A stretch of DNA of 54,439 bases. Origin: a virus. Lineage: Duplodnaviria > Caudoviricetes. The DNA lies in IMG/VR virus record IMGVR_UViG_3300025102_000037, positions 1 through 54,439 of that record, one strand, 5' to 3'. Shown here one piece after another: positions 31,001-47,898 of this stretch. Each line of letters opens with the position of its first letter. Positions within the stretch are counted from its first letter, which is position 1. A program made the translations under genes and the position numbers. Under the pieces are notes generated by a model. That model ran no database searches. It saw only the letters and a list, made by a program, of their open reading frames with translations, and had not been told where the DNA came from.

Positions 31001-32018
31001 AGCTAGATTTGTGGGTGGTAATCCATTGATGATGGATACTGCTAACTCTGCTGGTGCTATTCTATTTAAAATCTTTAGATCATATCCGACTCTGTTCTTT
31101 GGTCAAAGGTTAAGACAAGATTCTAGATACTATGGTCCGTTACAAAATGGTATTAGAATTGCTAATCTTATTTCGTTAGATATGCTTTACATGGTTGCAT
31201 CTGCTGTTGCCTCCGGCGGCTTAGATGAAAAACGTATAGATCTTTTAATGCAAGAAATTCAACAAAAGGATGCTTTAATTCGTCTTATTGCTCGCACGCC
31301 AACCTTTGGTATGTTTGGGGGAGTTCTTGCTTCTGCTGTTGCTGAAGCAGGAATCTTTGTTACGGGCGGAAAAGGTTACACACAAAACCTTTTGAACCAA
31401 GCATTTATTCCAATTCCTCTTGCTAAGATTCAATCTAGTGGCGTAAACGGTTTGCTTAATATGTTGAAGTATGCTGGTGAACATGGTGCTCAAGCAGATG
31501 CTCGTTTTAATTTAGCCTTGATGAATCTGTTAACCTCGTTACCAGTTCTGCAAGAGGCATATACCAAGGCAGCAATCCATCATTATTTCTCAACCCCTAT
31601 GATGAGAAATCTTCAAAACGAAAAACTGCAGAGAAAAATTAATGCAGGTAATCGTAGAAGAAGTGGTGGGTCTGGCGGTAGAGGAGCTGGCAGTGGAGGT
31701 CGACTCTATTATCAAGACCCTGAGGATTACAGAGCCAACCCCGGAGCTATTGAGTTTGCGGCAGATAGAAACATCTGGCCTGATGAATTAATATCTTATG
31801 ATATGTTGGCAGTTTTAGCCGGAGAGCCATTGCCGAGCCTGATGGGCCCTGCACCGCTTCCCAAGGCCGAAGACGACCCCACCCCCTCTGAAGCTGCTCC
31901 TCCGCCTCCACCGGCCCCTGAGGCCCCGCAAAAGCAAGTGGACACTTCTCCATCATTGTCAGCTAAGACTGGTAGCCCCAGTCAACGGTTCGCAGAATCA
32001 TTAGGTCAGTTCTCGTAA
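16035..32018 (+). CDS. Giant internal virion protein (gp16-like position) with a putative T7-family virion RNA polymerase domain, SAP-like motif and HExxH metallopeptidase motif
   Basis: 5327 aa, RBS AAGGAG. YFDGNFNGIHH (motif A-like, 22881), EDYY, RALFKKPVMTYLYG (exact Rx3Kx7YG, 23295), PRIVHASDAAH (25764), HELVH...EEFVAE (27585-27790). Confidence 0.75.
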   Translation: MGEAERRLFEIEDLKNVTRDLRRRHTTLDGGQNNGLTTEDYNRNRAMDAQDRTLETLERNYAYSEHTANSQAANAREAATYGQKRFGKMKDNAVIAKFLGHRDPKGAQAYNDFMYKIATPDATGNLKIADQRTTGWAAASSASWFLSNAELERGITSRNANNIKINMNLMRGGLRDYFEGEGLKEYRGDEEIERGMDSITVAGDGWNVNPLNFDESFDAFGLMDSPDLQALRYTDSNFSADTYLNEIQEINPEFVSLMNKSGVDMDVLKQTGNANEFWWNVNRGIAMLGAANTIAHWKETVPEYQEWAMMAKDFVRDSLMNDPDFAGELVIGGMLALSTGPVGIAALTGLKVAKHVGKGKKFARTLVNAARTMRKAAQKANNALPQNWGLSIGYGLRKTAVGRFLNVTSDDFIVDGMKFGTTRKYGSKLTGYMMAELPAGFVEEGIAGAYNAYSMNQTQVGRDQDLFKAFIDEGVAGSLVRAFGINPALRSINFGMRYTGAKAEKYLVDNFGSMFDEDADGMGWTRNIGAFFHRAKQITSLDDTTFLSNELDALDVMIALDELNMTEAEAIAEIEGSNVQELVNKHPALQAIATMLEFDKEGNIIGRETLTDGKKGELKLVKLIRKTREDIARQKLGIDRTEDFTEQEGDTEDVRKFKAEQREKIAKEVKEGTVSKDEFNLALMGAVWGKLDSEAKSASEARAHRDAAYFQMSLRSLALEKHQEMKKTNPKATFQEAFDAVLDDPDLLIKMDQGGVSREIDQIIAEQHPDLYETATDENSGEEYFVPKKDTEDRKYSEELAKHRRNVDFDTQLAAIKAHRKRLGIVKDMRFAIDDALQEKANTAFRELNNKINHEASFNTVVEFIEANDDGSTLIIDGGKGLIEDLNDADIIEVTVNMRGVKMPMRLSVRRPKAFERKGRGQTLKTVKVEVQALTVEKYDSVREMLNKLQIVTGIDEVKAAEKLRPLIKQAIADRLGIKDASDTDLVAMFTGLRRAQGRELTEAEADLIKGLKSDSKKNRQRKINSRTAMIDLIQNDLTEVAVGQLSVQYFDGIGLDSSNVLARLSDPEASRFILTIENARKEAQDNLALSEVLSGLGGMFNIEIVPDADPRAIAERDLIRQKDAAKVKAMNLKGKALTAELDRLGLKKSGNAKAKKERVAQAYARLLEEGKPIDGKPEAEAKPEEPAKEPTAEETEITEIESRLAEIAKMEAESKENNQELAVHIIEEKERLTERLNELKEKQPETEDEGRGITFDPADARRPGVDQETNDLMNKFLQEATDPTLPRGSIERSEDRLVALKKMKDGKVLDEKESDAIDALIREETERLERRKAEQVEEESPVEVEVLQAVEESMDESAKTTDAKTGDAIDQANKDADSGEIIAEDGTVSEDGKKAAAIRTERQANTDRAVDSQRKAEDADTSSQRVKENYNTRRPIILQELRSIEAERERLREEAREQEGEKFDDEDFATRKDVVKLDQREAKLKKELATMEEALGNASQRIAEKNKDALQKAQVKEEELKERENALAPDMDQSIAENVWAQIEVRRMKKDKANDARRILRKLKEKNPQPTIEEMHAALLEVGFSEFDAKTIANFMTEEVNGAIEADKKLSKKEKERKKLTNIRERGDTTINQDHFNTAYEAFKKRLKTEAEGELTQRELRQAKIMALYGKEEWERVRAASNPDIELDIALEGNDAIVPIRGKPFTGLINTAFDPVDRNGIDMSDDDKTAVLNANNQLALIKALERAINNLATIEGRTTITSAELASFALAVGKRKGFDVNVGQLFAKMNWAVIFRESMVTGVDEGVEYFDPESLLDELMMHKARLEYKTRGRKTKLRALEAQKESLSRDEHLQDEELLLEETLEIAEGDSDTLKELGRILFRSETSSLRGQFLVGIDPTSRKLVRTSNKAEYEATVLGAIEERMKLYFAQPRKLAKIVNFLVEEGLLDPSYRDNTSPDQTAQKMYVQAVAQYLRTYPGNKSGDLSSWGNGDISYSFADQIGMGIVDTLAGEQIGTTHEMVEDYEDDYDSSGAKIHGSDRMDPVKHRGAPIKINMAEPMLPGRLEKLKEDHRLMMVNQFIMELDLTEEEMGMIFDFTDPEKTPDKTAVGVVADRSKFIAGERPMPRIIFADPTANLQSRKKLLEDMAFALSGLHDVLLSSIHDSVNNQVYGESIPSGFLDEGIVSELYERHGIGLPGTTVAIPGREDALGRGAGEAGGFGVAGARFGTLAYHAARSYGKMYPVFRDTAIEGLATWSAFSKAINEATDIGIKSAEEALSKDTYFDGNFNGIHHKMALSFTFTEMELDWSFPTDKLRAAIADKGDALDRFLFDHHEMMGNKFVGRYKNRNKEDYYIKSAHDILLALFKRAYQGTGPEQKLAQDTVEKLQEIGFLPETLSVATFEDGITIDNLLDGEEYAKVRALFKKPVMTYLYGAKKDTINKEFKNFLVDEMGLNATEASKVSDPLTRIALGFGLKSRQIALTDLTNKDRTEDPLLKNILGDDSQLDSILKAMRTRMDAHGFTDDNQRKLREHIRNMMVDPSNPMALEDITFNNLAFQIQMRDSMIEGLIQGQLGYQPGTPEYNRMKSKINKTMQAASDKQMEFLGNRIRKGIERLSAPALTSDTPLLKLTDKELETVPKVVGILLTKPKSEWSQFEEVKPYLDKNGNISDEPVGETLNLKKNMGSFIRHIRVEINEGITREEAQEVQKEADAAIEPQEGLFQAVKAMGEVGRKLDMVALDELMEFAGISVGDPNMRNTLEKYYKNNLTYRGIGRDGYAGRWYGTEHEGTHQGPKGAQDQGVAADEPLLAMGAMLKARNEVNFDKAEQMFARYLLHRTANVHTNVEHVIVKIAKQKLEGEKDPDQIRRLKAIIAIMTPDNELTPEQRVERDIQFFEDWHSQYEVAKAVEDAVKTQGGFESLTDSERQQVKLSSMLTQATAAHGMDPETVDTPATTVEELEDRKINLGQNHGMFATRAKAFDTSFRNLGVPEFKKIRVKRILQGTGMVTGKIESLRDFMDNAEESDALMIEQEHVNNLVENPYSTEPNDLLYPELNIAESSDIAMQASRQTIQKYATSLRTKLIRFAYDHGLIEMIQRGEWQRVDYLMKVRIIRDRNHEQRRTELNRLPAELSREELTKRREEIIHRYRRKTAREIKLINQRAEENADAVSTIVEMAPGGNVSTISTGTLVNKDGTSKNLGEILNTLRNELNNLGAYGALSPVEGVAMDDLSRAVFVTEETADRPRIVHASDAAHILTLIIDMQDTADFLRTEGRELVETIIKRNDLDITVEEFTKRLPVYGKYLSLDEAIFVIDELDKKETLADRNILTLAKSAYLGQLDQEETETALRSTSSRRGLIAGTGEIATENKIQGTTGRIKLTLSQARQALLNIRNSTTLDLITDTHYTGISHLNKHKSRGTRLDQIDHVTGQRVSEMRLRDEVHAEGMQYLVDEYNVREGKPTELNTSLNVVVGGRDRSMLSQTEGGNRRLPAMGGVFAEGPFRKRRGTQQAIYLDYSQFEGETDQLHSGVLKAQLTAWKQLEVLPDELESLVDIKPPFRGEKLRLLKQQRVLGYLATHYSISDETRITIPAVIKDGKVEQKAKSFGSVAVNTALAYMELYGNTKEMFVTEGGVTRSLTLEEVIQLPEVQRMITKAETWATTALMVRTGENGKYYDEARGFVMWLAENPASFTSSDENQLDIQFFEYLKSRNKSIDLLDKAEMKAAQDALRKAISQIEVEDSLQSREVPLTLTVDPDTAAKNLENTISGVAFKSSLEQAVADGYISETTKDIVLAVVAKISASNADFLNRVDIQFGANKSRAISAMAGDRYLIELSTADGKKNPMTAAKILLHELVHVGTYKYFDLESTSDEMLQIKELMRFRSVNKLMFDMTAAFTKGDRTATFQRHRQFMKKPEEFVAESAAMFWLTEARAEIEQILSDAEGKIEFSEVEDAGKQNFIKRIRKAIVRSIDSTRNTLRSMIATMTEFESYYGEEGKAELAKMKELALQAAGIVVKNGKPDASLVAKPNNHRYVFHHDGSESGTTTEKTDDEVLDLLGKIRSIKDQINTQRGKDGNDLSPEELSALGDELTARNSELDAVDALPDEFGTFRSQRIIAEQELRDNGRFRSGDGVLVVDMKDLLVEKPGVALSIFTRNLKNNNGKIHRGFLDRIALNREGLNQLTLGPSQNDMTYDSIYDLAVQLSLVIDQQILMTEHMINPEGTSDLLRAKQKIDNQLAFLRGQIRGNKDIKPEQESKILYYLAHPKAKPETGEEALHDVAKLMRTQFNDVIDLAKDTGLLFKGLDYSPVPIKINEQALMENRNEIMKSLTGDIAKKIRGNMADAIDPITLMSSGLLPPMFLTSKRTDPNSLSEDQKKDFINAVQKLAKTEAGRKVIEHAIGLLRPEQKEQFEGYPIKELLGYKYPVGGDSNWKTHHVMNLMIAFETLYEKGFKQQGFRKGAGRHNVLIEFVNQKQNRQQYIDAVSSQINTNQYTIMRANKKFNVSAVRATPLDPGKSTDTPVYSPATYRAELFLGEVQSGVRFLAADKVFEPTSSEIVSQMLGTAADRADGTHTLGDAFVKDSETLIEGVGTGLGFDAVATLAIGHRARGNGYEIEGIRFDDILGALLETGSDAIIRDPVLTEGVRDGLRKNRSISGLRDSLKVVQNKYDTLAGRRVRVDKTQGSGLINRIASMGSDLVLASYGGNLALATSIVEGTATAFQMAGRGDMLRGPAMLLKSMLMGGAQGTLGGLVKAGRLFGFESNRFQIKSTAAELSYAFEHTKVRGMETSSDDPSLVTEGTMSKIGAFVGQVPRSLADAATGASSGVTNGIKFAVEGLAINTLNKLIRSGGLMKMAKFLETDKGKELLALGESENIATSKLYSQVKRILKGSGLSDFAFLGKHDVKVFMAMMDSGVLRPDFLKDLNDLINVAGLEQFIFDGSAAKYSPRSSALTHIAQLQRAALMTQDKAKRDRFMNTLSQIKEYVNREIEARFVGGNPLMMDTANSAGAILFKIFRSYPTLFFGQRLRQDSRYYGPLQNGIRIANLISLDMLYMVASAVASGGLDEKRIDLLMQEIQQKDALIRLIARTPTFGMFGGVLASAVAEAGIFVTGGKGYTQNLLNQAFIPIPLAKIQSSGVNGLLNMLKYAGEHGAQADARFNLALMNLLTSLPVLQEAYTKAAIHHYFSTPMMRNLQNEKLQRKINAGNRRRSGGSGGRGAGSGGRLYYQDPEDYRANPGAIEFAADRNIWPDELISYDMLAVLAGEPLPSLMGPAPLPKAEDDPTPSEAAPPPPPAPEAPQKQVDTSPSLSAKTGSPSQRFAESLGQFS

Positions 32019-32028
32019 GGAGTTCTTT

Positions 32029-32478: not shown

Positions 32479-32556
32479 GGGTCACGAATTTGTAAGGGGC
32501 TTTCTAAGATTTTTGTTTTGAGATGACCCCCATTACCCCCCTTGAAAGGATTTGTG

Positions 32557-32775
32557 ATGAACTACGATATTTCTGCTTTGACTGACTGGCTTGACATGCA
32601 ACAGATTACTGCTGTCATTGACAAGCACGAGCACCAGCTCGGGCCTTGGCCCATTAAGCCTTATCCCGGCAGCACGGCGTTTAGGCGTGCCCTCTATCGC
32701 TACCTCAGCACTCGGGACAAGACACCCGAGCAATGGGAAGAGGATCGCTACGCCGATTGGTGCGACTCTCTCTAA
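32557..32775 (+). CDS. Hypothetical protein, first gene of the GC-rich early region
   Basis: ATG after GAAAGGA; followed by a perfect hairpin. Confidence 0.55.
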   Translation: MNYDISALTDWLDMQQITAVIDKHEHQLGPWPIKPYPGSTAFRRALYRYLSTRDKTPEQWEEDRYADWCDSL

Positions 32776-32784
32776 CCACCGCCT

Positions 32785-32806
32785 CGCTAGGCTTAACGGC
32801 CTAGCG
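32785..32806 (+). repeat. Hairpin CGCTAGGC-TTAACG-GCCTAGCG (C-TTARCG-G family, copy 1)
   Basis: Perfect 8-bp inverted repeat with a TTAACG loop, 10 nt after a stop codon. Confidence 0.8.
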
Positions 32807-32853
32807 TTGCTTTCCTTAACGCCGGGAGTTATGACCCTGAGCGGAGGTGCACT

Positions 32854-32895
32854 GGCACCGCTGGGCTACCCTTAGCGGGGTAGCTCAGTCATTCC
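32854..32895 (+). repeat. Hairpin CTGGGCTACCC-TTAGCG-GGGTAGCTCAG (copy 2); also a degenerate direct repeat of 33425-33466
   Basis: 11-bp stem with one G-T pair. The flanks GGCACyGCTGGGCTACC and GGGGTAG...CATTCC recur at 33425. Confidence 0.8.
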
Positions 32896-32938
32896 ATAGG
32901 CACACTGCAGCCTTCAATGCAGAGATTAGGAGACTGTT

Positions 32939-33424
32939 ATGAAACAGTTGATTACTACCGTAGCGTGTGTTGCTATCCTGTCGTTCGTCTTTGGCGTGGC
33001 TGTGGGTAGCTCTGAGCCGAAGCCTGCCCAAGCAGTGGGCTTTGAGCTTGAGCGATCACCAGCTGTTGCCATGGCTAACACCTTGCTGGAGATGTCACCA
33101 CTCGAGGATGCTATCTGGTTGGCTGAGTCCAACCGATGGACCGGAGAGTTGGGACCAATCTTTGGTGACGATGGCGATGCCTGTGGTCCGTTGCAGATTC
33201 ACTATGCCTGTTGGGTTGATGCTCTTGAGCACGACCCAAGCATTGGTGGTCAGTACCGGAACTGTCAGGATCTAGGCTATGCCCTGTCTATCTTCCGTGC
33301 TTACATGGATAGATACGGTCAGGGTAAGACTGATCGACAGAAGGCACGCATCTGGAACGGTGGACCGAAAGGCCACCTGAAGGCTGCAACACTTAGCTAC
33401 GCTGCCTTGTCCTACTTGGACTAA
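32939..33424 (+). CDS. Lysozyme-fold enzyme (i-type/destabilase-like) with N-terminal signal or anchor
   Basis: RBS AGGAG. Hydrophobic N-terminus; AIWLAES (catalytic Glu), GDDGDACGPLQIHYACWVDA, YMDRYG, ARIWNGGPKG..AATLSY. Confidence 0.8.
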   Translation: MKQLITTVACVAILSFVFGVAVGSSEPKPAQAVGFELERSPAVAMANTLLEMSPLEDAIWLAESNRWTGELGPIFGDDGDACGPLQIHYACWVDALEHDPSIGGQYRNCQDLGYALSIFRAYMDRYGQGKTDRQKARIWNGGPKGHLKAATLSYAALSYLD

Positions 33425-33537
33425 GGCACTGCTGGGCTACCTCGAAAGGGGTAGTGCCAGCATTCCCACCTCTTTGCTGGTTGCGGCGGGGGATGGAAGG
33501 TGGGTAAGCCACCATCGCAGGTAACTGTGGTGGTGGT
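33425..33537 (+). other. Cluster of intergenic RNA hairpins (possible RNase III/processing or termination signals)
   Basis: CTACCTC-GAAA-GGGGTAG, CCCACCT...AGGTGGG and GCCACCATCGCAG-GTAA-CTGTGGTGGTGGT. GNRA loops and G-U pairs point to RNA-level structure. Confidence 0.6.
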
Positions 33538-33595
33538 ATTAGCGGTGGTTAGCCGTGAGCTTGCTGGTGCGTACCAGCGATAGGAATACTTTACC

Positions 33596-34093
33596 ATGAA
33601 CAGGTATAAGTTTCTTCTTGATCGTGTAGCAACAGATGTGTTCGCGTGGCCTCGTGGTCCACAACATCCACCTCTGTTCTATGTCACCATTTACAAAGTC
33701 ACACGCTGTTACGGTGGTCCTGAAGAGGGCGGCTGGGATTACGACCATACAGATTATCTGTCATCGTGTCCAGTCCGCGATCTTCACTACGCTGCAGAGT
33801 TGATTGAAGCATTGGAGGCTGAGCCCTCATTGCAGAAACAACCTAAACCGTATCCAGTGAGTCCGATGCATGGCGATCCTTTTGATCTCATGAACGACTC
33901 GGATGACTGGACACCACGCGGTGCGGACGGGGATGTACGGTATGAGTTCAGTATTGAAGTCATGCCAGACCACCCCAACCTCACTCATTATAGAAACAAT
34001 CTTGAACGAGTATCGTTCTATGATGATGGCGACCGACGGTTCTATACCGTTGGCTGGAGACAATCACCCGCTGGTGTCCCTCGTTACGAGTGA
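33596..34093 (+). CDS. Phage hypothetical protein (YGGPEEGGW motif)
   Basis: YVTIYKVTRCYGGPEEGGWDYD, a motif I recognise from small phage early proteins; function unknown. Confidence 0.7.
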   Translation: MNRYKFLLDRVATDVFAWPRGPQHPPLFYVTIYKVTRCYGGPEEGGWDYDHTDYLSSCPVRDLHYAAELIEALEAEPSLQKQPKPYPVSPMHGDPFDLMNDSDDWTPRGADGDVRYEFSIEVMPDHPNLTHYRNNLERVSFYDDGDRRFYTVGWRQSPAGVPRYE

Positions 34094-34319
34094 TGCCCTC
34101 ACCGCCTTGTGCTCTCGGAGGGGAGCACTTGGCCTTTCCCCTTGCTTGCAGGGGACACGCGAAAGGAGTTCGCAATGCGATTGCCAGTGATGGCAAACCG
34201 CAGGACTATATGCGTCCGCTGAGGATGACAGTCCTCAACTGGGCAGTCCTCAACCTTCGGGCTGAGGTATCTGGTGTGGCATAGTGAAGCCCTACATTTA
34301 CTGATTGGAATAGATTACC

Positions 34320-34877
34320 ATGAAGAATTTCTTCAAGAAATCGGAATCGACATTCAAGACCCCTGAAAAGGTCATGTCGGTTGTCTCCTTTTCCTTTGAC
34401 CGGAACGAGGGATGGCAAGTAATTGCTACTACCCTCCTTCCCAATGCCAACTTCCGAGCTGAACGCGAAGTTGTTGGTACTCTCGGGTTCGAGGCACAGC
34501 CTGATGCTGTTGTCAAGAATCTGGTCAAGCAGGCCCATGCGTCGAATCGTGAACTCGTTTCGATCATCCCTGCTGGCAAGGACGGCGAGCAAGTACGCCC
34601 AGCTTACTGGGCTACCGTTGCTTGCTCGACAGACGGTTACACTTTGACCGTCGAGGCCCTGATGCCAAAGGCCATCGCCCCGTATATCGAGGGTGTTGGT
34701 GCAGGCTTCAGCGTTGATCTCAAGACCAAGACCTACGGGCGTAAGCTCAAGGCTGAGGTCGGGCAGATCCTTTCCAGCTATGATCCGCAGGACGCTCCTG
34801 CGGGGAGCATCGTGTTCTCACTCTGTGTCGCGAACGGCTCAGGGTACATCTCAATGTACAAAGCCTTGAACGGCTAA
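34320..34877 (+). CDS. Beta-rich hypothetical protein (possible nucleic-acid-binding factor)
   Basis: 185 aa with strong C-ending codon bias and alternating hydrophobic strands; followed by a hairpin. Confidence 0.65.
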   Translation: MKNFFKKSESTFKTPEKVMSVVSFSFDRNEGWQVIATTLLPNANFRAEREVVGTLGFEAQPDAVVKNLVKQAHASNRELVSIIPAGKDGEQVRPAYWATVACSTDGYTLTVEALMPKAIAPYIEGVGAGFSVDLKTKTYGRKLKAEVGQILSSYDPQDAPAGSIVFSLCVANGSGYISMYKALNG

Positions 34878-34902
34878 ACACATTGGGCTTCACACCACAC
34901 CA

Positions 34903-34932
34903 CTCTTACCCTGCTTAGCGGCGGGGTAAGGG
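34903..34932 (+). repeat. Hairpin CTCTTACCCTGC-TTAGCG-GCGGGGTAAGGG (copy 3)
   Basis: 12-bp stem with two G-T pairs and the same TTAGCG loop as copy 2, but a different stem sequence. Confidence 0.8.
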
Positions 34933-35124
34933 CTTTGCCGATCATCTCTTATGATAATATTATGTTATCATATGCCATCATACATCATGGGTAGTGGTTG
35001 TGGTGGTGGTGATGGTGGCGGGCTTGGGTCTATCTTGTGGATAACCCGGGTCTACATCCGTATCCCATGGCTGTCCGTCCATAGGGGTACCTGCTTTTTT
35101 CCACGGACGATAAGGAGATCACCA

Positions 35125-35442
35125 ATGAGTGATAAACGTGTTTACAATCATAGAACTCCTCACAACTTGTATCCTATGGGGTACCAGTACATGATGATAG
35201 CTTGGAATGATCGTCATCCAGATGATCAGATGGAGAGCCGTCAAGTCATGGAGCATGCTGTCAAGCGTGCTGAGTTTTCGTTTGTACAGGCTCTGAGCAA
35301 TGACCCTTTGATCAGGGATATCTTAGAGGCTACCGTTCCTCTTCCTAATCCAACTGACCAACAGCGTAGGCTGACACGGATAGTTGGGCTTAAAGAGGGG
35401 ATGCCCGAATCGTTTAATGAATTCAAAAGGAATCAATTCTAA
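35125..35442 (+). CDS. Hypothetical protein, possibly sigma-region-4-like HTH
   Basis: Likely start MSDKRVY after TAAGGAG rather than 34951. MGYQYMMIAW...SRQVMEHAVKRAEFSFVQAL loosely fits the region-4 pattern. Confidence 0.6.
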   Translation: MSDKRVYNHRTPHNLYPMGYQYMMIAWNDRHPDDQMESRQVMEHAVKRAEFSFVQALSNDPLIRDILEATVPLPNPTDQQRRLTRIVGLKEGMPESFNEFKRNQF

Positions 35443-35636
35443 TGTCATTATCTGATAATGAACGTATTGAACTGAAGGAACTCCGAGCAGATAAAGCTGT
35501 TTATGAAAATAGAATAGCATATCTGGAGCAGACAGTTAGATCATATAAGATTGAAATTAATTGTCTACGCAACAAGAGACTTAGCCCTGCTGAGGTTAAG
35601 CAAGAGACAATCCGTCGACTGAAGGCTGGATTGTAA
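35442..35636 (+). CDS. Small coiled-coil hypothetical protein
   Basis: ATG overlaps the upstream TAA; heptad pattern. Confidence 0.6.
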   Translation: MSLSDNERIELKELRADKAVYENRIAYLEQTVRSYKIEINCLRNKRLSPAEVKQETIRRLKAGL

Positions 35637-35729
35637 GCGGAGAGTTGAAGAGAATGGATGGCACTGGGGAAACCTAGTGTCATCCTTTGCCTGTGTCGCA
35701 TTACGATACAACAGGTTTACTTTCTCCTC

Positions 35730-35763
35730 GTGACCTGTCTCCGGCAAGAGGCAGGTCGCCTTT
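35730..35763 (+). terminator. Hairpin upstream of the compact RNAP (weak terminator or processing site)
   Basis: GTGACCTGTCTC-CGGCAA-GAGGCAGGTCGC, a 12-bp stem followed by only a short CTTT. Confidence 0.45.
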
Positions 35764-35830
35764 AGTACCAACTGTGGTACTGACTCTGCCACTGAGTTAG
35801 TGGTGATTTTATTCTTGAAAGGATTCCATT

Positions 35831-37615
35831 ATGCAGACTATGCAAAAGTGGATGACTGAACTCATCTCCCGTGTGGAGTGTGAGTGTGGGATCTCTGTTA
35901 CCACGGAGATCAAGAACATGTTGTGGGATGGTCGGACTAAGGCTTACATCGTCAACGCTCTGCGTAAGACGGTTATGGTCCACTGCTCCGGTAAGTACGC
36001 ACAGGATCCGTCCTATGCTGAACGTGCATTGCTGGCTCTCATGGTTACTAATGGACTGACAAGTCCAAAGGAAAGCCGTGAAGGTCGTGTGCTCTTCAAT
36101 CCCCCTGAGCTGGCTGAACGTCGTGCTCTTGTGTCCAAGAACGTACATGTCAATGTGCCTGATGCCTATCGTGACTCGCTTGCGTGGGCTCAGGCTACCC
36201 CTTACCGGGTGAACACTGACATGCTTGGACTGCTCATGGATGCCAACCTCTTGGAAGAGTGGGAGGCTGAAGAAGCAATTCGTGTTGTCTCTGACAACGA
36301 TGGTATCTTCTACCTTGATTGCTTTATGGATTTCCGTGGTCGTACCTACACGAATCACTATGGTAGCCTGTCCCCGCAGGCGAACCAGAACGTCCGTGCC
36401 TTGGTCGACTTTGGTTACGAGACTCCAGTTGGATTGTGCAGTGATAACTACAACATGCTGATGGGTGTGTTGGAGGAGGAGTACAAGGTCAACTGGAAGA
36501 ACTACACCAAGATCCTGAAGAATGCAAAGTCTCTCCTTGCAGACAAAGCACATGGGAAGAAGACTGCCGGTGTTATCCGTGCAGCCCTGTGCCTGAAGGA
36601 GATTGCTACGACTGGCAAGTCTGCGTACATTGTACAGCAGGATGCTACTTGCTCTGGCTTCCAGCACATGGCTGCGCTTCTGCGTGACCGTGATCTGGGT
36701 AGTCTGGTCAACCTCACGGCTGGCACTCGTAGTGACTTGTACATGGCTGCTACCGACTTCCTGTGTGAACAGGGGACGGCAGTTGGCGTGTTCTTGGCTG
36801 ACCATGACCGAAAGGTTGTGCGTTCTGAACTCGCTAAGCCAACTGTCATGTTGACAGGCTATGCCTCTACCGCTGAGGCACTAGCCCTGTCGTACCTTGG
36901 GTACGATGGCAAGGCAGAGTACACGGACAAGACCGGCGAAACTGTCATTGCGACACGTTTCAAGGATGTGAAGCAGGCACTGAAGCAAGGTGCTGATGTC
37001 AACTTCAATCCTGATTCAATCATGACTCAATGGTTGGATGGTCGGACTGGTGAGAAAGCTATGTATGCTGCACTCACCTTTGCTCGTGAGTTCCAAGAGG
37101 CATTGTTCACGCTCTGCCCCTCGGTCAAGGAACTCATTACTTCAATCAAGGGTGCTGCTTTATCGCACTTCAACAAGACTGGGGCAACTCTATCTTGGAC
37201 TACACCATTGGGATTGTTTATCTTTCTTTCCCCTTGGAAAGTCACTGAAGATACGCACACTGTCTCTTTCCAATCTGGAGGGATTCGCAAATCCATGAAC
37301 GTCTTGTCATTGCGACCTGACTCCATGGGTGGTGCAGCAGGAGCTTTACCCAACTTGATTCACTCCTTGGATGCTTGCCTTGTTCACATGGTAAACCTTG
37401 CCCGCATCGGGCTGGGTATGCCATGGGCTGACATCCATGACTCCTTCGGCTCCACTGTTGGAGATGTCAAGCGTACCGTTGAACTGGTGAATGACGCTTT
37501 CGTTGAGGTTCACACCAAGTTTGAGATCAATGATGATGTGCTTCGATTGCACAATCGTTCGATCTTGAGCAAGGGTGATCTCTGTCTCTCAGAGTTGGAA
37601 CAAATTATCTTCTGA
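35831..37615 (+). CDS. Compact T7-family single-subunit RNA polymerase (594 aa, N-terminal domain largely absent)
   Basis: MDFRGRTY (aa 167), QQDATCSGFQH (motif A), SDLY, RSELAKPTVMLTGYA (variant motif B), WTTPLG, PNLIHSLDA, IHDSFG (motif C), C-terminal IIF. RBS GAAAGGA. Confidence 0.92.
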   Translation: MQTMQKWMTELISRVECECGISVTTEIKNMLWDGRTKAYIVNALRKTVMVHCSGKYAQDPSYAERALLALMVTNGLTSPKESREGRVLFNPPELAERRALVSKNVHVNVPDAYRDSLAWAQATPYRVNTDMLGLLMDANLLEEWEAEEAIRVVSDNDGIFYLDCFMDFRGRTYTNHYGSLSPQANQNVRALVDFGYETPVGLCSDNYNMLMGVLEEEYKVNWKNYTKILKNAKSLLADKAHGKKTAGVIRAALCLKEIATTGKSAYIVQQDATCSGFQHMAALLRDRDLGSLVNLTAGTRSDLYMAATDFLCEQGTAVGVFLADHDRKVVRSELAKPTVMLTGYASTAEALALSYLGYDGKAEYTDKTGETVIATRFKDVKQALKQGADVNFNPDSIMTQWLDGRTGEKAMYAALTFAREFQEALFTLCPSVKELITSIKGAALSHFNKTGATLSWTTPLGLFIFLSPWKVTEDTHTVSFQSGGIRKSMNVLSLRPDSMGGAAGALPNLIHSLDACLVHMVNLARIGLGMPWADIHDSFGSTVGDVKRTVELVNDAFVEVHTKFEINDDVLRLHNRSILSKGDLCLSELEQIIF

Positions 37616-37633
37616 TAATCCTCTCTGACCAAC

Positions 37634-37666
37634 GATGTATGGATGTGAAAGCATCCATGCATCTTT
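37634..37666 (+). terminator. Hairpin terminator after the compact RNAP
   Basis: GATGTATGGATGT-GAAA-GCATCCATGCATC followed by TTT and an AT-rich tract. Confidence 0.65.
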
Positions 37667-37884
37667 ATGCCGATTAATAATTTATTATTACTATTTATTA
37701 TTATCAATGTATCTGTAATGGTTATGGATGTGATGGTGATGGTGGTGGTAATGGTGGATGCAGGACGCAGGACTCCCGAGAGGGTCCCCCCCGCAAGCGG
37801 GTCCCCCCCAAGAACCTCGGCAGATCCAGCGTCCTAGGCGACCCCGGTCAGACGGGGCTGACACAACTTCATAGGAGAATAAAC

Positions 37885-38172
37885 ATGAAGGTGAATGTGA
37901 TGGATACTAAATCCAAATACGAGGCTATGGTGGCTGATGGTAAGGCTGCTGTGGTGAAAGGTATTGCTTGTGGCCCTGCTGGGTCTAAGCAAAAGGTAGC
38001 CAAGCAAGTGTGCGAGGCTAATGGAATCTCACTGGAAAAGACAGTGAAGAAAGTAAAGGACTACACCACGATGGATGATGCTGTGCTGGCAAACATTCTG
38101 TCGATGGATCATGTAGGTGAAGACAAGAAGGCCGCTGTGCAAGCAGAGGTTGATCGGAGAGCAAATGCGTAA
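37885..38172 (+). CDS. Hypothetical protein
   Basis: RBS AGGAG; 95 aa, K/A/V-rich. Confidence 0.7.
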   Translation: MKVNVMDTKSKYEAMVADGKAAVVKGIACGPAGSKQKVAKQVCEANGISLEKTVKKVKDYTTMDDAVLANILSMDHVGEDKKAAVQAEVDRRANA

Positions 38173-38389
38173 AGCAACAATCTCAGATGCAAGAGTTGAT
38201 TATCTGTACTATATCAAGGGATACAGTTTACAACAAGTTGCTGAATCACTTGGCTATACACCAGATGGTATTTACAAAAGCATGAAACGACGAGGTAAGA
38301 AACTTCGTCCACGAGGTCGACACAAGATGGTAACAATCAACTTGTCTGGCGACTGGCGTAAACAATTGAACGCATCACTGCGTAAGTGA
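38165..38389 (+). CDS. Helix-turn-helix DNA-binding protein
   Basis: LYYIKGYSLQQVAESLGYTPDGIYKSMKRRGKKLRPRG. ATG 38165 follows GGAG. Confidence 0.75.
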   Translation: MRKATISDARVDYLYYIKGYSLQQVAESLGYTPDGIYKSMKRRGKKLRPRGRHKMVTINLSGDWRKQLNASLRK

Positions 38390-38491
38390 TGTACTGAATC
38401 ACATAGAGGTGATAAACTATCGACGCTATCAAGGTGTAGTGGTCAAATCAAACACACAAACTACTTCACTAGTCTAATTAACTAGTGATTA

Positions 38492-38676
38492 GCCGTGGCG
38501 GAATAACTCTTTAACAGAGGAGTAACGCACAACTACCAAGATGGAGACCCATCTGGCAGAGTCCAATCGGATGAGCCAACCTTAGTCAGGTTCGTGTAGG
38601 TGGTACGAAGTAAGGACACTCGAACTTGATCTGTTCCCGAAAAGTTGTAGGTAAACAAGCAATCCTACCGGCACCA
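38492..38676 (+). ncRNA. Putative tRNA-like structured ncRNA ending in ACCA
   Basis: 5' GCCG pairs with 3' CGGC-A-CCA; TGGCGGAAT..AACGC D-arm-like segment; GTAGG/CCTAC T-arm-like stem; several internal helices; no ORF. Confidence 0.6.
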
Positions 38677-38829
38677 AACTATTTGATAACATTATCACCC
38701 GGACTGAAATGTTCGCGTTAACATGTGTGCTGTTATCAACGCCTTACCCCACAGGTGTAAAGAGGTGGGTAGCAGGGGTGCGATTCTGCTAAACCAACGC
38801 ACACTTTTTCAACAAGGTAATTGTGATAG

Positions 38830-40993: not shown

Positions 40994-41039
40994 AAAATAA
41001 TAAAAATTGTTTGACACATAAGACAAGGACGTATATAAT
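40991..41039 (+). promoter_or_regulatory. Consensus sigma70-type promoter with UP element
   Basis: TTGACA (41011-41016), 17 bp spacer, TATAAT (41034-41039), preceded by an A-rich tract. Confidence 0.85.
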
Positions 41040-42423: not shown

Positions 42424-44862
42424 ATGCTTTGGGATAAACTGTCTTATGAAGAACAGCAAAGAAGAATTGATATCGAATCTACTATGGAAGAGGAGACGTT
42501 GTTATCTTCTATCCAAAAGTATTGGGATGATTATGACAGGGCACCCGATGAGGGTATCCCTGAACAAAAACTATTAGATGATTTTATTGATGAGCTAGCT
42601 CCCCAGTATCAGGAGTGGATTGATAAGGTATCTGATAGTCCTAAGTGTCCGCAGTGGGTCTACCCATTATTTGCATTAGGTGCTCACAAGATGGCAGACC
42701 TAACGCTTAGATCTGTGATGCGACTGTGGCTAAACAGTAATGCTTTCAAAGAAGACAGCGATGGTATTGTACACCCACCACTTGCACAGCATGTGGTTAG
42801 AATGATATCTAAAGATGCAGTAAATATTATTGCTTATCAGCTAGCTAAAGAAGAACACAGAGATGACTGGCAAAGACAGTCTAAGTTTATTAAAAACTGG
42901 TCAGAAAAAAGATGTATTGCTTTTGCTACTAAGATGGCAAAGATTCCAGACATGACGCTCAAACAGAAGGATGACTTTGGTCATCACATGTTGCGTATTG
43001 CAGAAGCTTCTGGCGTAGTGCAGACTACTAAACGCAGCAAGCGCAGGGGTAGAGGGTGGACTCATGCATTGCATGTAGAGTTTAGCCCTGCTATCCTAGC
43101 CTATCTTAATGAACGACACAAGCTAATGGAAACATCTATGCTTGTATATCGTCCAATGATTATACCCCCTGTTGAGCACAACTTAGATAGTTCCGGTGGG
43201 TATCTTCACCACTGGATTCGTAAAGAAGTTGTACATAGATATGTCTCTGAGTATGCAGAAGATAAAGTTGTACACCAAAAACACTCAGAGCCGTCACAGT
43301 TTGTGCTTGATGGTGTCAATGCTATGATGCAAACGGAATGGACAGTCAATGACAGAGTGTTAGAAGTTATGGAAAACATGTTTAAGTCAAACAATCAATT
43401 AGCTAATCTACCTGCATATAACTTTGATGAGTTCTCATATAATGAACCGTACCCTGAAGATGGGCCGAAAGATGTGCAGGCTAAATGGTGTCAGCGTAGA
43501 GAAGAGATGTACAGTAATTGGTTTAAACAAGAGCAGGCTAGAGCTAGAATGTTAGTTCGCTTGACTCTTGCTAAGAAGATGCAGAAGTATCAATTCTTTT
43601 ACATGCCAATGACGCTCGACTTCCGGGGGCGAGCGTACACTACATGTGAGTTACTGTCTCATCAAAGCTCTGACTTTGATAAAGCATTGATTCATTTTGC
43701 TGAGCCTGTAAAACAAACAGATCGTGGATTGTATTGGGTTAAAGTTCATGCTGCTAATATGTTTGATCAAGATAAACTTTCTTTTGATGAGAGAGTAGAG
43801 TGGGTAGATGATAACATGGATATGCTTCAAGCAATTAATGATGATCCCTACTCTAATAAAGAGTGGGTATCAGATAAAAAGAAAAAGAATCCATCATTCC
43901 AAAGGCTTGCTGCTGTGTTTGAAGTATGCCGTACAGATGGGTTGACTCAGTTAGCACCGCAGATGGATGGCGCATGCAATGGTTCGCAGCACTGGGCTGC
44001 TATCATGGGTGATAAGGTAATTGGTGCATTAACTAATGTGTTACCTGAAGACAAACCACAAGATCTGTACCAATTTATTGCAGATAAAACTACTGACTAT
44101 TGTCGAAAAAATACTAAGAATATTTCTTGGTGTGAAGACTTCCTTGAGTATTGGCCTGAAGGTATTGATCGTGCTGTAACCAAACGACCTACTATGTGTG
44201 ACGCATATGGGCTAACATTTTATGGTATTCAAAAGTATATTAAGATTGAAGGTCATGTTGACTGGGTGCCCAAGGAAAAACAAGGTGGAGCTATTGTAGA
44301 GTTAGCCCGAGCAATCCAGCATGGGCTAGGTGAGGCATTGCAGGAGCCCAATCGTGGCAAGGAATGGCTCAAGGAATGTGCTGAGATATGTGGTAATGCT
44401 GGCTTTCACCTAGAGTACACTGTCCCTAGTGGCTTTAAAGTAGTACATGCATACTACCAGATTAAAAAGAGAAGATCATTAGCGTCACTCTTTAACCACA
44501 AAGAACTTATATTTTGGAATGTTTCTAAAGAAGTGAATAGAGATAAAGCAATGCTTGGTATACCACCAAACTACATACACTCACTAGATGCAAGCCATAT
44601 GTTCTGCACTGTAAAACAAATGATTAATGCGGGTATTGAAAGATTCAGTATGATCCATGATTCGTATGGTTGTCCCGCACCATATGTGGATATGATGAAT
44701 CAATTTATTAGAGATGAGTTTTTAAAAATGCACAAGGAGAATCAACTTGAAGTATTCAAACGATGCGTCGAAGCAACCACGGGGGTCACACTCCCTGATG
44801 TCCCAGACAGAAGAGACATGGAACTCGAGCGAGTCTTGGACTCCAAGTACTTCTTTTCATGA
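42424..44862 (+). CDS. T7-like DNA-directed RNA polymerase (canonical, 812 aa)
   Basis: PMIIPP, LDFRGRAY, QMDGACNGSQH (A), QDLY, RAVTKRPTMCDAYG (B), PPNYIHSLDASH, MIHDSYG (C), C-terminal YFFS. Confidence 0.97.
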   Translation: MLWDKLSYEEQQRRIDIESTMEEETLLSSIQKYWDDYDRAPDEGIPEQKLLDDFIDELAPQYQEWIDKVSDSPKCPQWVYPLFALGAHKMADLTLRSVMRLWLNSNAFKEDSDGIVHPPLAQHVVRMISKDAVNIIAYQLAKEEHRDDWQRQSKFIKNWSEKRCIAFATKMAKIPDMTLKQKDDFGHHMLRIAEASGVVQTTKRSKRRGRGWTHALHVEFSPAILAYLNERHKLMETSMLVYRPMIIPPVEHNLDSSGGYLHHWIRKEVVHRYVSEYAEDKVVHQKHSEPSQFVLDGVNAMMQTEWTVNDRVLEVMENMFKSNNQLANLPAYNFDEFSYNEPYPEDGPKDVQAKWCQRREEMYSNWFKQEQARARMLVRLTLAKKMQKYQFFYMPMTLDFRGRAYTTCELLSHQSSDFDKALIHFAEPVKQTDRGLYWVKVHAANMFDQDKLSFDERVEWVDDNMDMLQAINDDPYSNKEWVSDKKKKNPSFQRLAAVFEVCRTDGLTQLAPQMDGACNGSQHWAAIMGDKVIGALTNVLPEDKPQDLYQFIADKTTDYCRKNTKNISWCEDFLEYWPEGIDRAVTKRPTMCDAYGLTFYGIQKYIKIEGHVDWVPKEKQGGAIVELARAIQHGLGEALQEPNRGKEWLKECAEICGNAGFHLEYTVPSGFKVVHAYYQIKKRRSLASLFNHKELIFWNVSKEVNRDKAMLGIPPNYIHSLDASHMFCTVKQMINAGIERFSMIHDSYGCPAPYVDMMNQFIRDEFLKMHKENQLEVFKRCVEATTGVTLPDVPDRRDMELERVLDSKYFFS

Positions 44863-47822: not shown

Positions 47823-47895
47823 GGCTCCATAGCCCAACGGCAGAGGCAGTGGACTTAAAATCCATCCAGTCCGGGTTCGAATCCCGGTGGAGCTA
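47823..47895 (+). tRNA. tRNA-Leu(TAA), short variable loop, CCA not encoded
   Basis: GGCTCCA/TGGAGCT acceptor stem; GTGGA-CT-TAA-AA-TCCAT anticodon arm; CCGGG-TTCGAAT-CCCGG T arm; discriminator A. Confidence 0.88.
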
Positions 47896-47898
47896 TTT

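What the first reader, a model, noticed from the sequence alone, without database searches (positions are those of the whole stretch)
35831..37615. Minimal 594-aa RNAP without the N-terminal promoter-binding domain and with an altered motif B
Seen: DFRGR begins at aa 167, versus aa 399 in the other RNAP and 421 in T7, so ~230-250 N-terminal residues are missing. Both catalytic Asp motifs are intact. Motif B reads R-x4-K-x7-Y-A instead of R-x3-K-x7-Y-G. The gene has its own RBS and a downstream hairpin, and no fragment of an N-terminal domain is evident upstream. Established: the T7 N-terminal domain mediates promoter opening and processivity, and N4 RNAPII lacks much of it and needs the ssDNA-binding cofactor gp2. 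Inference: a cofactor-dependent or ssDNA-template enzyme, a primer-making enzyme, or a motor for genome entry.
Basis: partly seen in the sequence, partly recalled or inferred. Interest (0 to 1): 0.82.

Follow-up and report, generated by a model that had tools for sequence, protein, structure and literature searches.

The report
Minimal second RNA polymerase, marine phage
An uncultured marine T7-like phage carries, beside its normal RNA polymerase, an intact and conserved stripped-down polymerase that keeps the catalytic core but lacks the parts that find and open promoters, so it probably needs helper proteins.

Summary
ORF 35831-37615 encodes an intact 594-aa T7-family RNA polymerase. DFRGR sits at residue 167, against 399 in the co-resident 812-aa RNAP and 421 in T7. 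Both catalytic Asp, Y344 and the H784 equivalent are present. Motif B reads R-x4-K-x7-Y-A.

It is not a decaying copy. Homologues of 572-617 aa run from 92% down to 34% identity. dN/dS is 0.14-0.18. Ten of 11 close loci keep the frame. An N-terminal-domain HMM that finds T7 and the 812-aa enzyme finds nothing else in the flanks.

It belongs to a deep clade of short RNAPs (476-654 aa) known only from metagenomes and separate from N4 RNAPII. Some complete ~480-aa members carry all motifs.

The gene lies in a GC-rich, swappable cassette. The cassette sits between a giant 5,327-aa ORF, which has its own cryptic RNAP motifs, and the early genes and full-length RNAP.

A covarying structured leader pairs with the gene's ribosome-binding site.

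The most likely function is a helper-dependent second transcriptase, analogous to N4 RNAPII but not a member of that family. The helper, the promoters and the timing of expression are unknown.

The parts
35831..37615 (+). Short single-subunit RNA polymerase (594 aa), called RNAP2 here
   Evidence: Searches give the ORF, family and motifs. The AF2 model has pLDDT 73.9. VIA Z is 30.0 against the T7 RNAP elongation complex 8dh5_M, with 432 residues aligned at rmsd 3.9. dN/dS is 0.14-0.18.
35637..35830 (+). Structured leader upstream of RNAP2: seven helices, one with a GAAA loop; a UCCU stretch pairs with the AGGA of the ribosome-binding site
   Evidence: In 8 sequences there are 55 pairs and 98.4% of cells are paired. 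Twelve pairs carry compensatory changes, against 3.2 in shuffles (0 of 500 reach it) and 0-3 in slid controls.
37634..37663 (+). Hairpin just after the stop codon (13-bp stem, weak U tract)
   Evidence: One search gives -20.4 kcal/mol, z -5.26. Stem changes are compensated in relatives (read by eye).
35125..35442 (+). 105-aa ORFan (c18). Its stop overlaps the start of the next gene. Candidate helper.
   Evidence: Conserved upstream of RNAP2 in WIN, L002, L013 and L005. No Pfam or PHROG family.
35442..35636 (+). 64-aa basic, coiled-coil-like ORFan (c22). Candidate helper.
   Evidence: Searches show conservation. pI is 9.5. Only weak coiled-coil Pfam hits.
34320..34877 (+). 185-aa ORFan (c17). 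Candidate helper.
   Evidence: Conserved in 4 loci. pI is 8.5. No family and no Atlas hit.
37885..38172 (+). 95-aa basic protein (c3), the last gene of the cassette and its most widely kept neighbour
   Evidence: Found downstream of RNAP2 in all 13 loci that were scanned and reach that far, including the divergent cassette of L018 at 36% identity. pI is 8.9.
38165..38389 (+). 74-aa helix-turn-helix protein (c23), the first backbone gene after the cassette
   Evidence: Weak sigma-70 region 4 and HTH hits, E 0.02-0.1, and phrog_1740 at E 4e-4. Nearly identical to its L018 homologue, with 3 differing residues of 74 on reading the two printed sequences. Nucleotide identity to L020 is 89.8%.
32500..38164 (+). 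GC-rich replaceable cassette that contains RNAP2
   Evidence: GC is 0.50 against 0.37-0.43 elsewhere. GC3 is 0.56 for RNAP2 against 0.24-0.39 for backbone genes. L020 is 82-94% identical on both flanks and unalignable inside, apart from one 82-nt stretch (73% identity) within the RNAP2 gene.
16035..32018 (+). Giant 5,327-aa ORF ending 3.8 kb upstream, with cryptic RNAP-like motifs: motif A-like at residues 2282-2297, motif B at 2421-2434, and an H784-like PRIVHASDAAH at 3244-3254
   Evidence: No motif C was found, and the fold was not obtained.
42424..44862 (+). Full-length T7-like RNAP (812 aa) of the same phage, 22% identical to RNAP2

Best explanation
The ORF encodes a working single-chain 'minimal' DNA-dependent RNA polymerase of the T7 family.

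It keeps the palm and fingers with all catalytic residues, the Tyr that selects ribonucleotides, the specificity-loop hairpin and the C-terminal aromatic end. It has lost the N-terminal elements that bind and melt a promoter and that form the RNA exit path, and it has lost most of the thumb.

It is the signature gene of a GC-rich cassette that is exchanged as a block among related uncultured marine T7-like podophages. The cassette sits between a giant virion-type ORF and the early genes that lead to the phage's ordinary T7-like RNAP.

Most likely it is a second, helper-dependent transcriptase. One or more small cassette proteins, or pre-opened or single-stranded DNA, would supply promoter opening and loading, as gp2 and Drc do for N4 RNAPII. 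It would then transcribe a subset of phage genes.

Its own synthesis appears to be controlled at translation by a structured leader that pairs with its ribosome-binding site.

Shown: the intact gene, conservation, purifying selection, fold, motif set, context, and leader covariation. Inferred: RNA synthesis, dependence on a helper, and the target genes.
For: Catalytic set and fold.

Missing parts mapped on T7.

No N-terminal domain encoded nearby, with positive controls.

Length is conserved at 572-617 aa from 92% down to 34% identity.

dN/dS is 0.142-0.184 against 9 close homologues. The N-terminal 166 codons score 0.13-0.26 in the 6 of those 9 homologues that were tested by region.

Ten of 11 close loci keep the frame.

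Clade: 34 of the 38 representatives with E <= 1e-30 are 476-654 aa long. All 46 rows of one clade are short, and N4 gp16 falls elsewhere. Complete ~480-aa members have all motifs.

Synteny: a giant ORF ends 1.4-4.0 kb upstream in 11 of 12 loci with at least 4 kb upstream. A full-length RNAP lies downstream in 6 of 7 loci with at least 8 kb downstream.

Cassette swap.

Leader covariation.

Precedent: N4 RNAPII is minimal, has a truncated thumb and N-terminal domain, and needs gp1/gp2 (PMC4496689, passages read). Its cofactors differ between N4-like clades without any sequence likeness (PMC7145618, passages read).
Against: No activity, expression or binding data exist.

No neighbour resembles N4 gp1, gp2 or the SSB, and no neighbour has a family.

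No promoter set for this enzyme was found.

The enzyme keeps a mildly basic specificity loop (pI 8.6), so it might recognise duplex promoters unaided.

The phage already has a complete T7-like RNAP and strong host-type promoters, so the need for a second transcriptase is unexplained.

The Arg of motif B is displaced by one residue, with unknown effect.

One close locus, L016, has the frame cut after codon 438.

Timing is ambiguous. The cassette follows a membrane protein and holds a lysozyme-like gene (sub-threshold Destabilase hit), which suggests late expression. It also lies upstream of the early block on the same strand, which suggests early expression.
Confidence: 0.5

Rival explanations
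1. It is an autonomous promoter-specific RNAP. The retained specificity loop and the remnant N-terminal region would be enough to recognise a short promoter, perhaps aided by easily melted or structured DNA, so no helper is needed.
For: A beta-hairpin is predicted at residues 469-496 in the position of the T7 specificity loop, with pI 8.6. G/T-rich tracts occur at three intergenic sites that lie only in the cassette: 31 matches against 10.1 expected, with 0 of 100 shuffles reaching that.
Against: T7 needs the AT-rich loop and the intercalating hairpin to bind and open promoters. This is established knowledge, restated in PMC4496689, and neither element has a counterpart here. The G/T tract is absent from the alternative cassette in L020, and no initiation site is known.
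Confidence: 0.15
2. It acts in replication. It would make primers or R-loops at an origin on opened or single-stranded DNA, as T7 RNAP does at the T7 primary origin and the mitochondrial RNAP does on mtDNA (recalled knowledge, not checked here).
For: Loss of the promoter-binding parts and of the thumb fits short, low-processivity synthesis on open templates. A 530-nt non-coding stretch with a manA-like RNA lies just downstream.
Against: The phage has a T7-type primase-helicase, phrog_239 at E 5e-166. No origin has been identified.
Confidence: 0.12
3. It is a counter-defence or back-up polymerase. As a fast-turnover accessory module, it would keep transcription going, or make decoy or structured RNAs, when the host blocks the main phage or host polymerase.
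For: The cassette is replaced wholesale between backbones that are 82-94% identical. Its codon usage is foreign to the backbone. It is full of ORFans and conserved structured RNAs. This pattern is typical of accessory regions in phages, which is an inference.
Against: No defence-related family was looked for or found. The gene is under ordinary purifying selection. The clade is deep, with conserved placement, which suits a core function better than an accessory one.
Confidence: 0.13
4. It is a virion-delivered or entry-coupled polymerase. It would be made late with the giant protein, packaged, and used at the next infection to transcribe and pull in the first DNA.
For: It lies directly after the structural block, the giant ORF and a membrane protein, and its cassette holds a lysozyme-like gene. 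The giant ORF shows RNAP motifs A and B and an H784-like motif but no motif C, so it might lack catalysis of its own.
Against: Nothing shows packaging. The structured leader and the gene's own hairpin terminator point to separate regulation. The genome ends are unknown.
Confidence: 0.08
5. It is a decaying paralogue or an assembly artefact.
For: One of 11 close loci (L016) has a broken frame.
Against: dN/dS is 0.14-0.18. All catalytic residues are invariant in 10 sequences down to 35% identity. The same ORF limits appear in independent assemblies. It is only 22% identical to the co-resident RNAP, so it is not a recent copy.
Confidence: 0.02

Closest known systems
Bacteriophage N4 RNAPII (gp15 + gp16, 673 aa in all)
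   Same: Both are minimal T7-family RNAPs with a truncated N-terminal domain and a truncated thumb (PMC4496689). Both are encoded by a podophage that also has a giant ORF. N4 RNAPII depends on small phage cofactors that vary between clades (PMC7145618). Structural match to gp16: Z 17.7, 307 residues.
   Different: This enzyme is a single chain of 594 aa, not a heterodimer. It is no closer in sequence: BLAST E 0.012 to gp16, PDB profile E 7.5e-4, and a separate place in the tree. No gp1, gp2 or SSB homologue lies nearby. It co-resides with a full-length T7-like RNAP, which N4 lacks.
T7 RNA polymerase (883 aa) and Autographiviridae RNAPs
   Same: Best structural match: Z 30.0, 432 residues aligned, rmsd 3.9, 20% identity. 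It shares DxxGR, motifs A, B and C, H784, the specificity-loop position and the C-terminal aromatic residue.
   Different: It lacks T7 residues 1-~235 and ~345-385. It has a ~40-residue insertion after motif B. The motif B Arg is shifted by one residue. Identity to isolate phage RNAPs is at most 26%, over at most 73% of its length.
Mitochondrial RNAPs (POLRMT, Rpo41)
   Same: Best sequence-profile hits in the PDB, E 1.2e-22, with Z 25-28. These are family members that need separate initiation factors (table in PMC4496689).
   Different: They are much larger, with long N-terminal extensions, and they keep an N-terminal domain with an intercalating hairpin (recalled).
N4 virion RNAP (gp50), for the neighbouring giant ORF
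   Same: Both are multi-thousand-residue phage proteins with T7-family motifs buried in the middle.
   Different: There is no direct sequence match to gp50. The spacing is very different, with ~810 residues between motif B and the H784-like motif. No motif C or DxxGR was recognised. The fold was not obtained.

Membership tests
T7-like single-subunit RNA polymerase (Pfam PF00940) | Profile match above the curated cut-off | tested here: met
   103.4 bits against a cut-off of 22, E 1.6e-29; phrog_414 E 1.1e-45.
T7-like single-subunit RNA polymerase (Pfam PF00940) | Catalytic Asp of motifs A and C, the DxxGR motif, and the H784 equivalent | tested here: met
   D271, D537, DFRGR at 167-171 and H511. 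D271, H511 and D537 are invariant in 10 sequences; within DFRGR only R169 and R171 are invariant and D167 is nearly invariant (>=90%).
T7-like single-subunit RNA polymerase (Pfam PF00940) | Motif B: R-x3-K-x7-Y-G on the O helix | tested here: inconclusive
   K336 and Y344 are in register. The Arg is one residue further away (R-x4-K), and G is replaced by A in the closest clade only. The effect on NTP binding is unknown.
T7-like single-subunit RNA polymerase (Pfam PF00940) | Right-hand fold superposable on T7 RNAP | tested here: met
   Z 30.0, 432 residues aligned, rmsd 3.9 to 8dh5_M. The model has pLDDT 73.9.
T7-like single-subunit RNA polymerase (Pfam PF00940) | Full N-terminal domain (AT-rich recognition loop, intercalating hairpin, subdomain H) | tested here: not met
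   There is no counterpart of T7 1-~235. The N-terminal HMM gives only E 0.012 on residues 114-136.
T7-like single-subunit RNA polymerase (Pfam PF00940) | DNA-dependent RNA synthesis | not testable with these tools
   This needs a biochemical assay.
N4 RNAPII | Heterodimer of two gene products split after DxxGR | tested here: not met
   A single ORF carries DxxGR and motifs A-C.
N4 RNAPII | Closer kinship to gp15/gp16 than to other family members | tested here: not met
   gp16 groups with P0143 and P0156, outside the 46-row short clade. BLAST E is 0.012.
N4 RNAPII | Truncated N-terminal domain and thumb | tested here: met
   compared with the description in PMC4496689.
N4 RNAPII | gp2- or Drc-type ssDNA-binding cofactor | tested here: inconclusive
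   N4 gp1, gp2 and SSB show no sequence likeness to any neighbour. Drc was not compared. Cofactors are known to differ without sequence likeness.
N4-like virion RNAP (for the giant ORF) | T7-family polymerase domain with motifs DxxGR, A, B and C | tested here: inconclusive
   For: motifs A-like and B and an H784-like motif are invariant in 6 homologues. A custom HMM hits 6 of 6 at motif B. hhalign gives E 2e-5 and 3.7e-4. PF00940 gives E 1.1e-4 and phrog_414 gives E 2.1e-4. Against: no motif C or DxxGR was found, and there is no PDB hit. The model has pLDDT 44.

The most novel reading that the evidence does not exclude
These marine T7-like phages may run a three-polymerase programme built from one protein family. 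In this reading, an injected giant protein with a much-expanded RNAP-like domain comes first. Then comes a minimal ~480-620-aa polymerase, carried with its own helpers and structured RNAs on a horizontally exchanged cassette. A canonical T7-like RNAP comes last. The minimal enzyme and its cassette partners would form a portable, self-contained transcription module. The ~480-aa members would be the smallest natural single-chain RNAPs of this family.
Probability: 0.15. Interest if true: 0.88.

Novelty: new variant of a known kind. Interest (0 to 1): 0.66.

Why it matters
Single-subunit RNAPs are a model for transcription and a workhorse for making RNA. [quoted passage not shown]

A deep, conserved clade of single-chain enzymes of 478-650 aa with every catalytic motif would define the minimal working core of the family. 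It would offer compact enzymes for RNA production, provided they prove active. It would also give a natural system for asking how promoter opening can be handed to separate factors.

The finding also shows T7-like phages with two, and possibly three, polymerases of one family. That blurs the line between the T7 and N4 transcription strategies.

Tried and rejected
Binding test: complex prediction of RNAP2 with the 95-aa neighbour c3 gave no verdict (score 0.19, mark 0.32). This is no evidence either way.

Expression: the look-up of sequencing runs listed no RNA holder, only marine DNA contigs.

PF14700: a search of the genome found nothing, but it also missed the 812-aa RNAP, so it says nothing. 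It was replaced by a custom HMM with controls.

Giant ORF:
- phmmer and a whole-length profile against the PDB found nothing.
- Whole-alignment hhalign found nothing.
- The AF2 model of residues 2150-3320 was poor, pLDDT 44.
- Foldseek gave no match at E <= 0.001. The only relevant hit was local, to mitochondrial RNAP 4boc_A (probability 0.98, E 0.8, 142 columns).

N4 proteins: gp1, gp2, gp15, gp16, gp50 and the SSB showed no significant match to the neighbours or to the giant ORF.

Neighbours: Pfam and PHROGs on the neighbours gave only weak hits. The Atlas gave nothing usable for the 185-aa protein. For RNAP2 residues 1-130 it gave a lead to RPOL_N clusters, score 0.90, a lead only.

Promoters: repeat and k-mer searches of the window found no T7-style repeated promoter. 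The 9-of-12 sigma-70-like sites at 34935 and 37674 were dropped, because the spacing of their boxes is not kept in relatives (read by eye).

Genome ends: no end repeats are recorded, and contig ends in relatives do not agree, so early versus late placement is open.

Host: the genome-contig scan gave one 2.9-kb contig binned with a Flavobacteriales MAG at 28% identity. That is too weak to name a host.

Isolate phages: 0 records cover at least 80% of any of three queries from three branches of the short clade.

Literature: six searches turned up no description of this clade or of T7-like phages with a second short RNAP. The N4 RNAPII structure paper (10.1074/jbc.RA118.003447) is not held and is known here only through PMC7145618. 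Supplements were not consulted.

Metagenome loci could not be extended.
Full report
THE OBJECT

ORF 35831..37615 (+) is open for 594 codons, and only four more in-frame codons lie upstream before a stop. It matches Pfam RNA_pol PF00940 (103 bits, E 1.6e-29, residues 260-566) and phrog_414 'RNA polymerase' (E 1.1e-45, residues 151-564 on profile positions 373-775 of 816).

Motif positions were computed directly:
- DFRGR at residue 167, against 399 in the 812-aa RNAP of the same window and DWRGR at 421 in T7.
- Motif A: D271 in DATCSG.
- Motif B: RSELAKPTVMLTGYA at 331-345.
- PNLIHSLD at 507, holding the T7 H784 equivalent.
- Motif C: IHDS at 535, so D537.
- The chain ends in an aromatic residue (…EQIIF), as T7 ends in FAFA.

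An AAGGA lies 7 nt before the ATG. A 13-bp hairpin (-20.4 kcal/mol, z -5.3) follows the stop.

WHAT IS MISSING AND WHAT IS KEPT

A MAFFT alignment with T7 RNAP, the 812-aa RNAP and other short and long family members shows the following:
- T7 residues 1-~235 have no counterpart.
- Residues ~75-140 of the short enzyme, including the invariant block RVL..P.L..RR.LVSK, align with T7 ~266-345.
- T7 ~345-385, most of the thumb, is deleted.
- T7's own insertion in the fingers is absent.
- The short enzymes carry a conserved ~40-residue insertion after motif B.
- The Arg of motif B aligns one residue N-terminal of T7 R627.

The shifted Arg is shared by the subclade (L018 RKDLAK, L019 RKQLAK). The ~480-aa relatives and P0028/P0039 have the canonical spacing. 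Y-A occurs only in the closest clade, and more distant members have Y-G.

The AlphaFold2 model, built on a 10-sequence alignment (pLDDT 73.9, pTM 0.74), shows a beta-hairpin at residues 469-496 where T7 has its specificity loop. It superposes best on T7 RNAP elongation complexes (Z 30.0, 432 residues aligned, rmsd 3.9). Mitochondrial RNAPs follow at Z 25-28. N4 mini-vRNAP scores Z 18.1 and N4 RNAPII gp16 scores Z 17.7.

An HMM was built from the N-terminal parts of 46 full-length relatives. It finds T7 (E 2.5e-92) and the 812-aa enzyme (E 1.3e-48). Among the 135 other six-frame ORFs of 31.5-38.5 kb it finds nothing apart from a weak match to residues 114-136 of this ORF itself. The missing domain is therefore not encoded separately nearby.

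NOT A DECAYING COPY

The word-indexed search found proteins of 585-617 aa running from 92% to 34% identity. In an alignment of ten, both catalytic Asp, R331, K336, Y344 and H511 are invariant, as are many N-terminal residues.

Nei-Gojobori dN/dS against nine close homologues is 0.142-0.184. The first 166 codons give 0.13-0.26 and the rest give 0.12-0.18; this split by region was computed for 6 of the 9 homologues.

Of the 11 close loci examined, 10 have an intact ORF of 590-593 codons. L003 and L011 are one contig held in two collections. L016 is cut after codon 438, and I cannot tell an assembly error from a defective variant.

The co-resident 812-aa RNAP is only 22% identical, so this is an old lineage and not a recent duplicate.

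A CLADE OF SHORT POLYMERASES

A profile search of 1.84 billion representatives gave 6,111 hits at E <= 0.001. Of the 38 hits at E <= 1e-30, 34 are 476-654 aa long, two are fragments, and two are longer.

In a quick maximum-likelihood tree of 157 rows, all 46 rows on one side of a branch (SH-aLRT 91) are short. T7, the 812-aa enzyme and N4 gp16 lie on the other side. The rows were chosen by similarity to the query, which favours the clade.

Complete ORFs of 478-495 aa inside contigs (L022, L023, L024, L026, L033) carry DxxGR at ~121-134, motifs A and B (canonical), the H784 motif and a VHDA motif C.

No record among 50,697 isolate phage genomes covers at least 80% of any of three queries from three branches. 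Identities stay at 26% or below. Six literature searches found no description of the clade.

THE PHAGE AND THE NEIGHBOURHOOD

The window is a T7-like podophage. It has a tail protein, a T7-type large terminase, a T7-type primase-helicase, a family A DNA polymerase and an 812-aa RNAP. Its nearest isolates are distant: 39% identity for the terminase and 28% for the RNAP. The record is incomplete. It starts inside a gene and no portal or capsid gene was noted among the ORFs I annotated; related contigs reach 67 kb.

After the terminase come ORFs of 221, 1,744 and 5,327 aa, and then a 149-aa protein with hydrophobic stretches. From about 32.5 to 38.16 kb there is a stretch with GC 0.50, against 0.37-0.43 elsewhere. 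GC3 is 0.56 for RNAP2 and 0.63-0.67 for two neighbours, against 0.24-0.39 for backbone genes.

This GC-rich stretch behaves as a cassette. Locus L020 is 87% identical to the window at 32028-32499 and 82-94% identical from 38165 onward. Between those points no sequence aligns apart from one 82-nt stretch (73% identity) inside the RNAP2 gene. L020 holds a different, equally GC-rich set of genes there, and its short RNAP is 35% identical to the window's enzyme.

Gene order is kept in WIN, L002, L013, L005, L003 and L018/L020: giant ORF, 149 aa, variable small genes, 185 aa, 105 aa, 64 aa, short RNAP, 95 aa, 74-aa HTH, early small genes, DUF932, 812-aa RNAP.

Across all mapped loci:
- A giant ORF ends 1.4-4.0 kb upstream of the short RNAP in 11 of 12 loci with at least 4 kb upstream. 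The twelfth contig begins inside the cassette.
- A full-length RNAP lies downstream in 6 of 7 loci with at least 8 kb downstream.

Two perfect sigma-70 consensus promoters stand at 41011 and 41138, just before DUF932 and the 812-aa RNAP.

THE GIANT ORF

Pieces of the 5,327-aa protein hit phrog_414 weakly (E 2.1e-4). The homologous ORF of record G001 hits PF00940 (E 1.1e-4).

Three blocks are invariant across six homologues down to 42% identity:
- TYFDGNFNGIHHKMAL at 2282-2297, compared with T7 motif A FDGSCSGIQH.
- R2421-x3-K2425-x7-Y2433-G2434, a canonical motif B.
- PRIVHASDAAHIL at 3244-3256, compared with T7 PNFVHSQDGSHL.

An HMM built from 162 family members hits all six homologues at motif B (13.6-20 bits). 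hhalign of the sliced regions gives E 2e-5 for the A-B region and 3.7e-4 for the C-terminal region.

Against this:
- No DxxGR or motif C was recognised.
- The spacing is extreme.
- PDB sequence searches and whole-alignment comparison were blank.
- There is no match to N4 gp50.
- The structure model failed at pLDDT 44.
- The only fold hit was a local match to a mitochondrial RNAP, with probability 0.98 but E 0.8.

I rate homology to the family as probable and activity as open. If the homology is real, the pairing of a giant RNAP-like protein with a minimal RNAP recalls N4. There, nearly all phages with a virion RNAP also have RNAPII (PMC4496689).

REGULATORY RNA

The 194 nt before the gene are more conserved than synonymous sites, and they fold into seven helices. 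On 8 sequences, 98.4% of cells pair. Twelve of 55 pairs carry compensatory changes, against 3.2 in shuffles (0 of 500 reach it) and 0-3 when partners are slid.

One invariant helix pairs UCCU with the AGGA of the ribosome-binding site. This suggests control of translation, but that helix shows no covariation, so it is untested.

A second, GC-rich conserved element precedes the 95-aa gene. G/T-rich tracts mark three intergenic sites of the cassette only.

A sub-threshold but full-length manA RNA match (44.1 bits, gathering score 55.2, E 4.8e-9) lies at 38467-38677.

HOW IT MOST LIKELY WORKS

The complete catalytic set, the ribonucleotide-selecting Tyr, the fold and the purifying selection all point to a working RNA polymerase.

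It has lost the elements that T7 uses to bind the upstream promoter, to hold the melted junction and to build the RNA exit path, and it has lost most of the thumb. That makes unaided opening of duplex promoters and high processivity unlikely. This is an inference from T7 and N4 biology.

The best reading is a second transcriptase that is loaded by small cassette proteins or that works on pre-opened DNA. The small proteins change together with the enzyme when the cassette is swapped. Only the 95-aa protein remains recognisable, at 36% identity.

I put this reading at 0.5. The main unknowns are the helper, the promoters, the targets and the timing. Timing is ambiguous because the cassette follows a membrane protein and holds a lysozyme-like gene, yet it also lies upstream of the early block on the same strand.

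The rivals are an autonomous promoter-specific enzyme, a primer or R-loop maker, a counter-defence back-up, and a virion-delivered enzyme. None is excluded. A decaying paralogue is excluded for practical purposes.

COMPARISON AND NOVELTY

It works like N4 RNAPII in outline but is not a member of that group. It is a single chain, it is no closer in sequence, and no gp1 or gp2 homologue is present.

I file it as a new variant of a known kind: a deep, uncultured clade of single-chain minimal RNAPs that live in T7-like phages beside a canonical RNAP and a giant ORF.

Supplementary files of the papers were not consulted. The N4 RNAPII structure paper could not be read.

Noticed in passing
window 16035-32018 (motifs at about 22878-22925, 23295-23336 and 25764-25802): The giant 5,327-aa ORF carries invariant T7-family RNAP-like motifs: motif A-like, a canonical motif B and an H784-like block. 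No motif C or DxxGR was recognised. It may be a much-expanded virion-type RNAP in a T7-like phage.
   Followed up: partly
window ~32500-38164: A GC-rich cassette (GC 0.50, GC3 up to 0.67) has sharp borders. In a backbone that is 82-94% identical (L020), it is replaced by a different GC-rich cassette whose short RNAP is 35% identical.
   Followed up: yes
window 35637-35830: A conserved seven-helix structured leader with strong covariation. One helix pairs with the ribosome-binding site of the RNAP gene. There is no Rfam match.
   Followed up: yes
window 37757-37884: A second highly conserved GC-rich element lies upstream of the 95-aa gene. It has two GGGTCCCCCCC repeats enclosed by a long-range GGACGC...GCGTCC pairing. 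It was seen only in an alignment of relatives.
   Followed up: no
window 38467-38677: A full-length but sub-threshold match to the manA RNA motif RF01745 (44.1 bits, gathering score 55.2, E 4.8e-9). It lies inside a 530-nt non-coding stretch that is 94-97% conserved in relatives.
   Followed up: partly
window 33526-33548, 34990-35027, 37729-37757: G/T-rich (GGT)n-like tracts occur at three intergenic sites of the cassette, each ahead of an operon. There are 31 matches against 10 expected in the whole window. They are absent from the alternative cassette of L020. Their function is unknown.
   Followed up: partly
window 41011-41039 and 41138-41166: Two perfect sigma-70 consensus promoters (TTGACA-17-TATAAT). 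The first has an A-rich upstream stretch. They lie just before small acidic ORFs, the DUF932 gene and the 812-aa RNAP, and are probably the host-RNAP early promoters.
   Followed up: partly
window 32854-32895 and 33425-33466: A 42-nt hairpin-forming direct repeat flanks the lysozyme-like gene (32939-33424). That gene has a signal-peptide-like start and a sub-threshold Destabilase match.
   Followed up: no
window 47823-47973: Two adjacent tRNA genes, Leu(TAA) and Arg(TCT), lie in the replication-gene region.
   Followed up: no
window 10788-16022: A 1,744-aa ORF between the terminase and the giant ORF has no Pfam or PHROG match.
   Followed up: no
L025 9410-11260, L028 8357-10207, L029 4111-5961 (minus strand): A 616-codon open frame runs antisense to the short RNAP gene in three related loci. 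The window has a 347-codon antisense frame at 35762-36805. This is probably a by-product of GC-rich codon usage.
   Followed up: no
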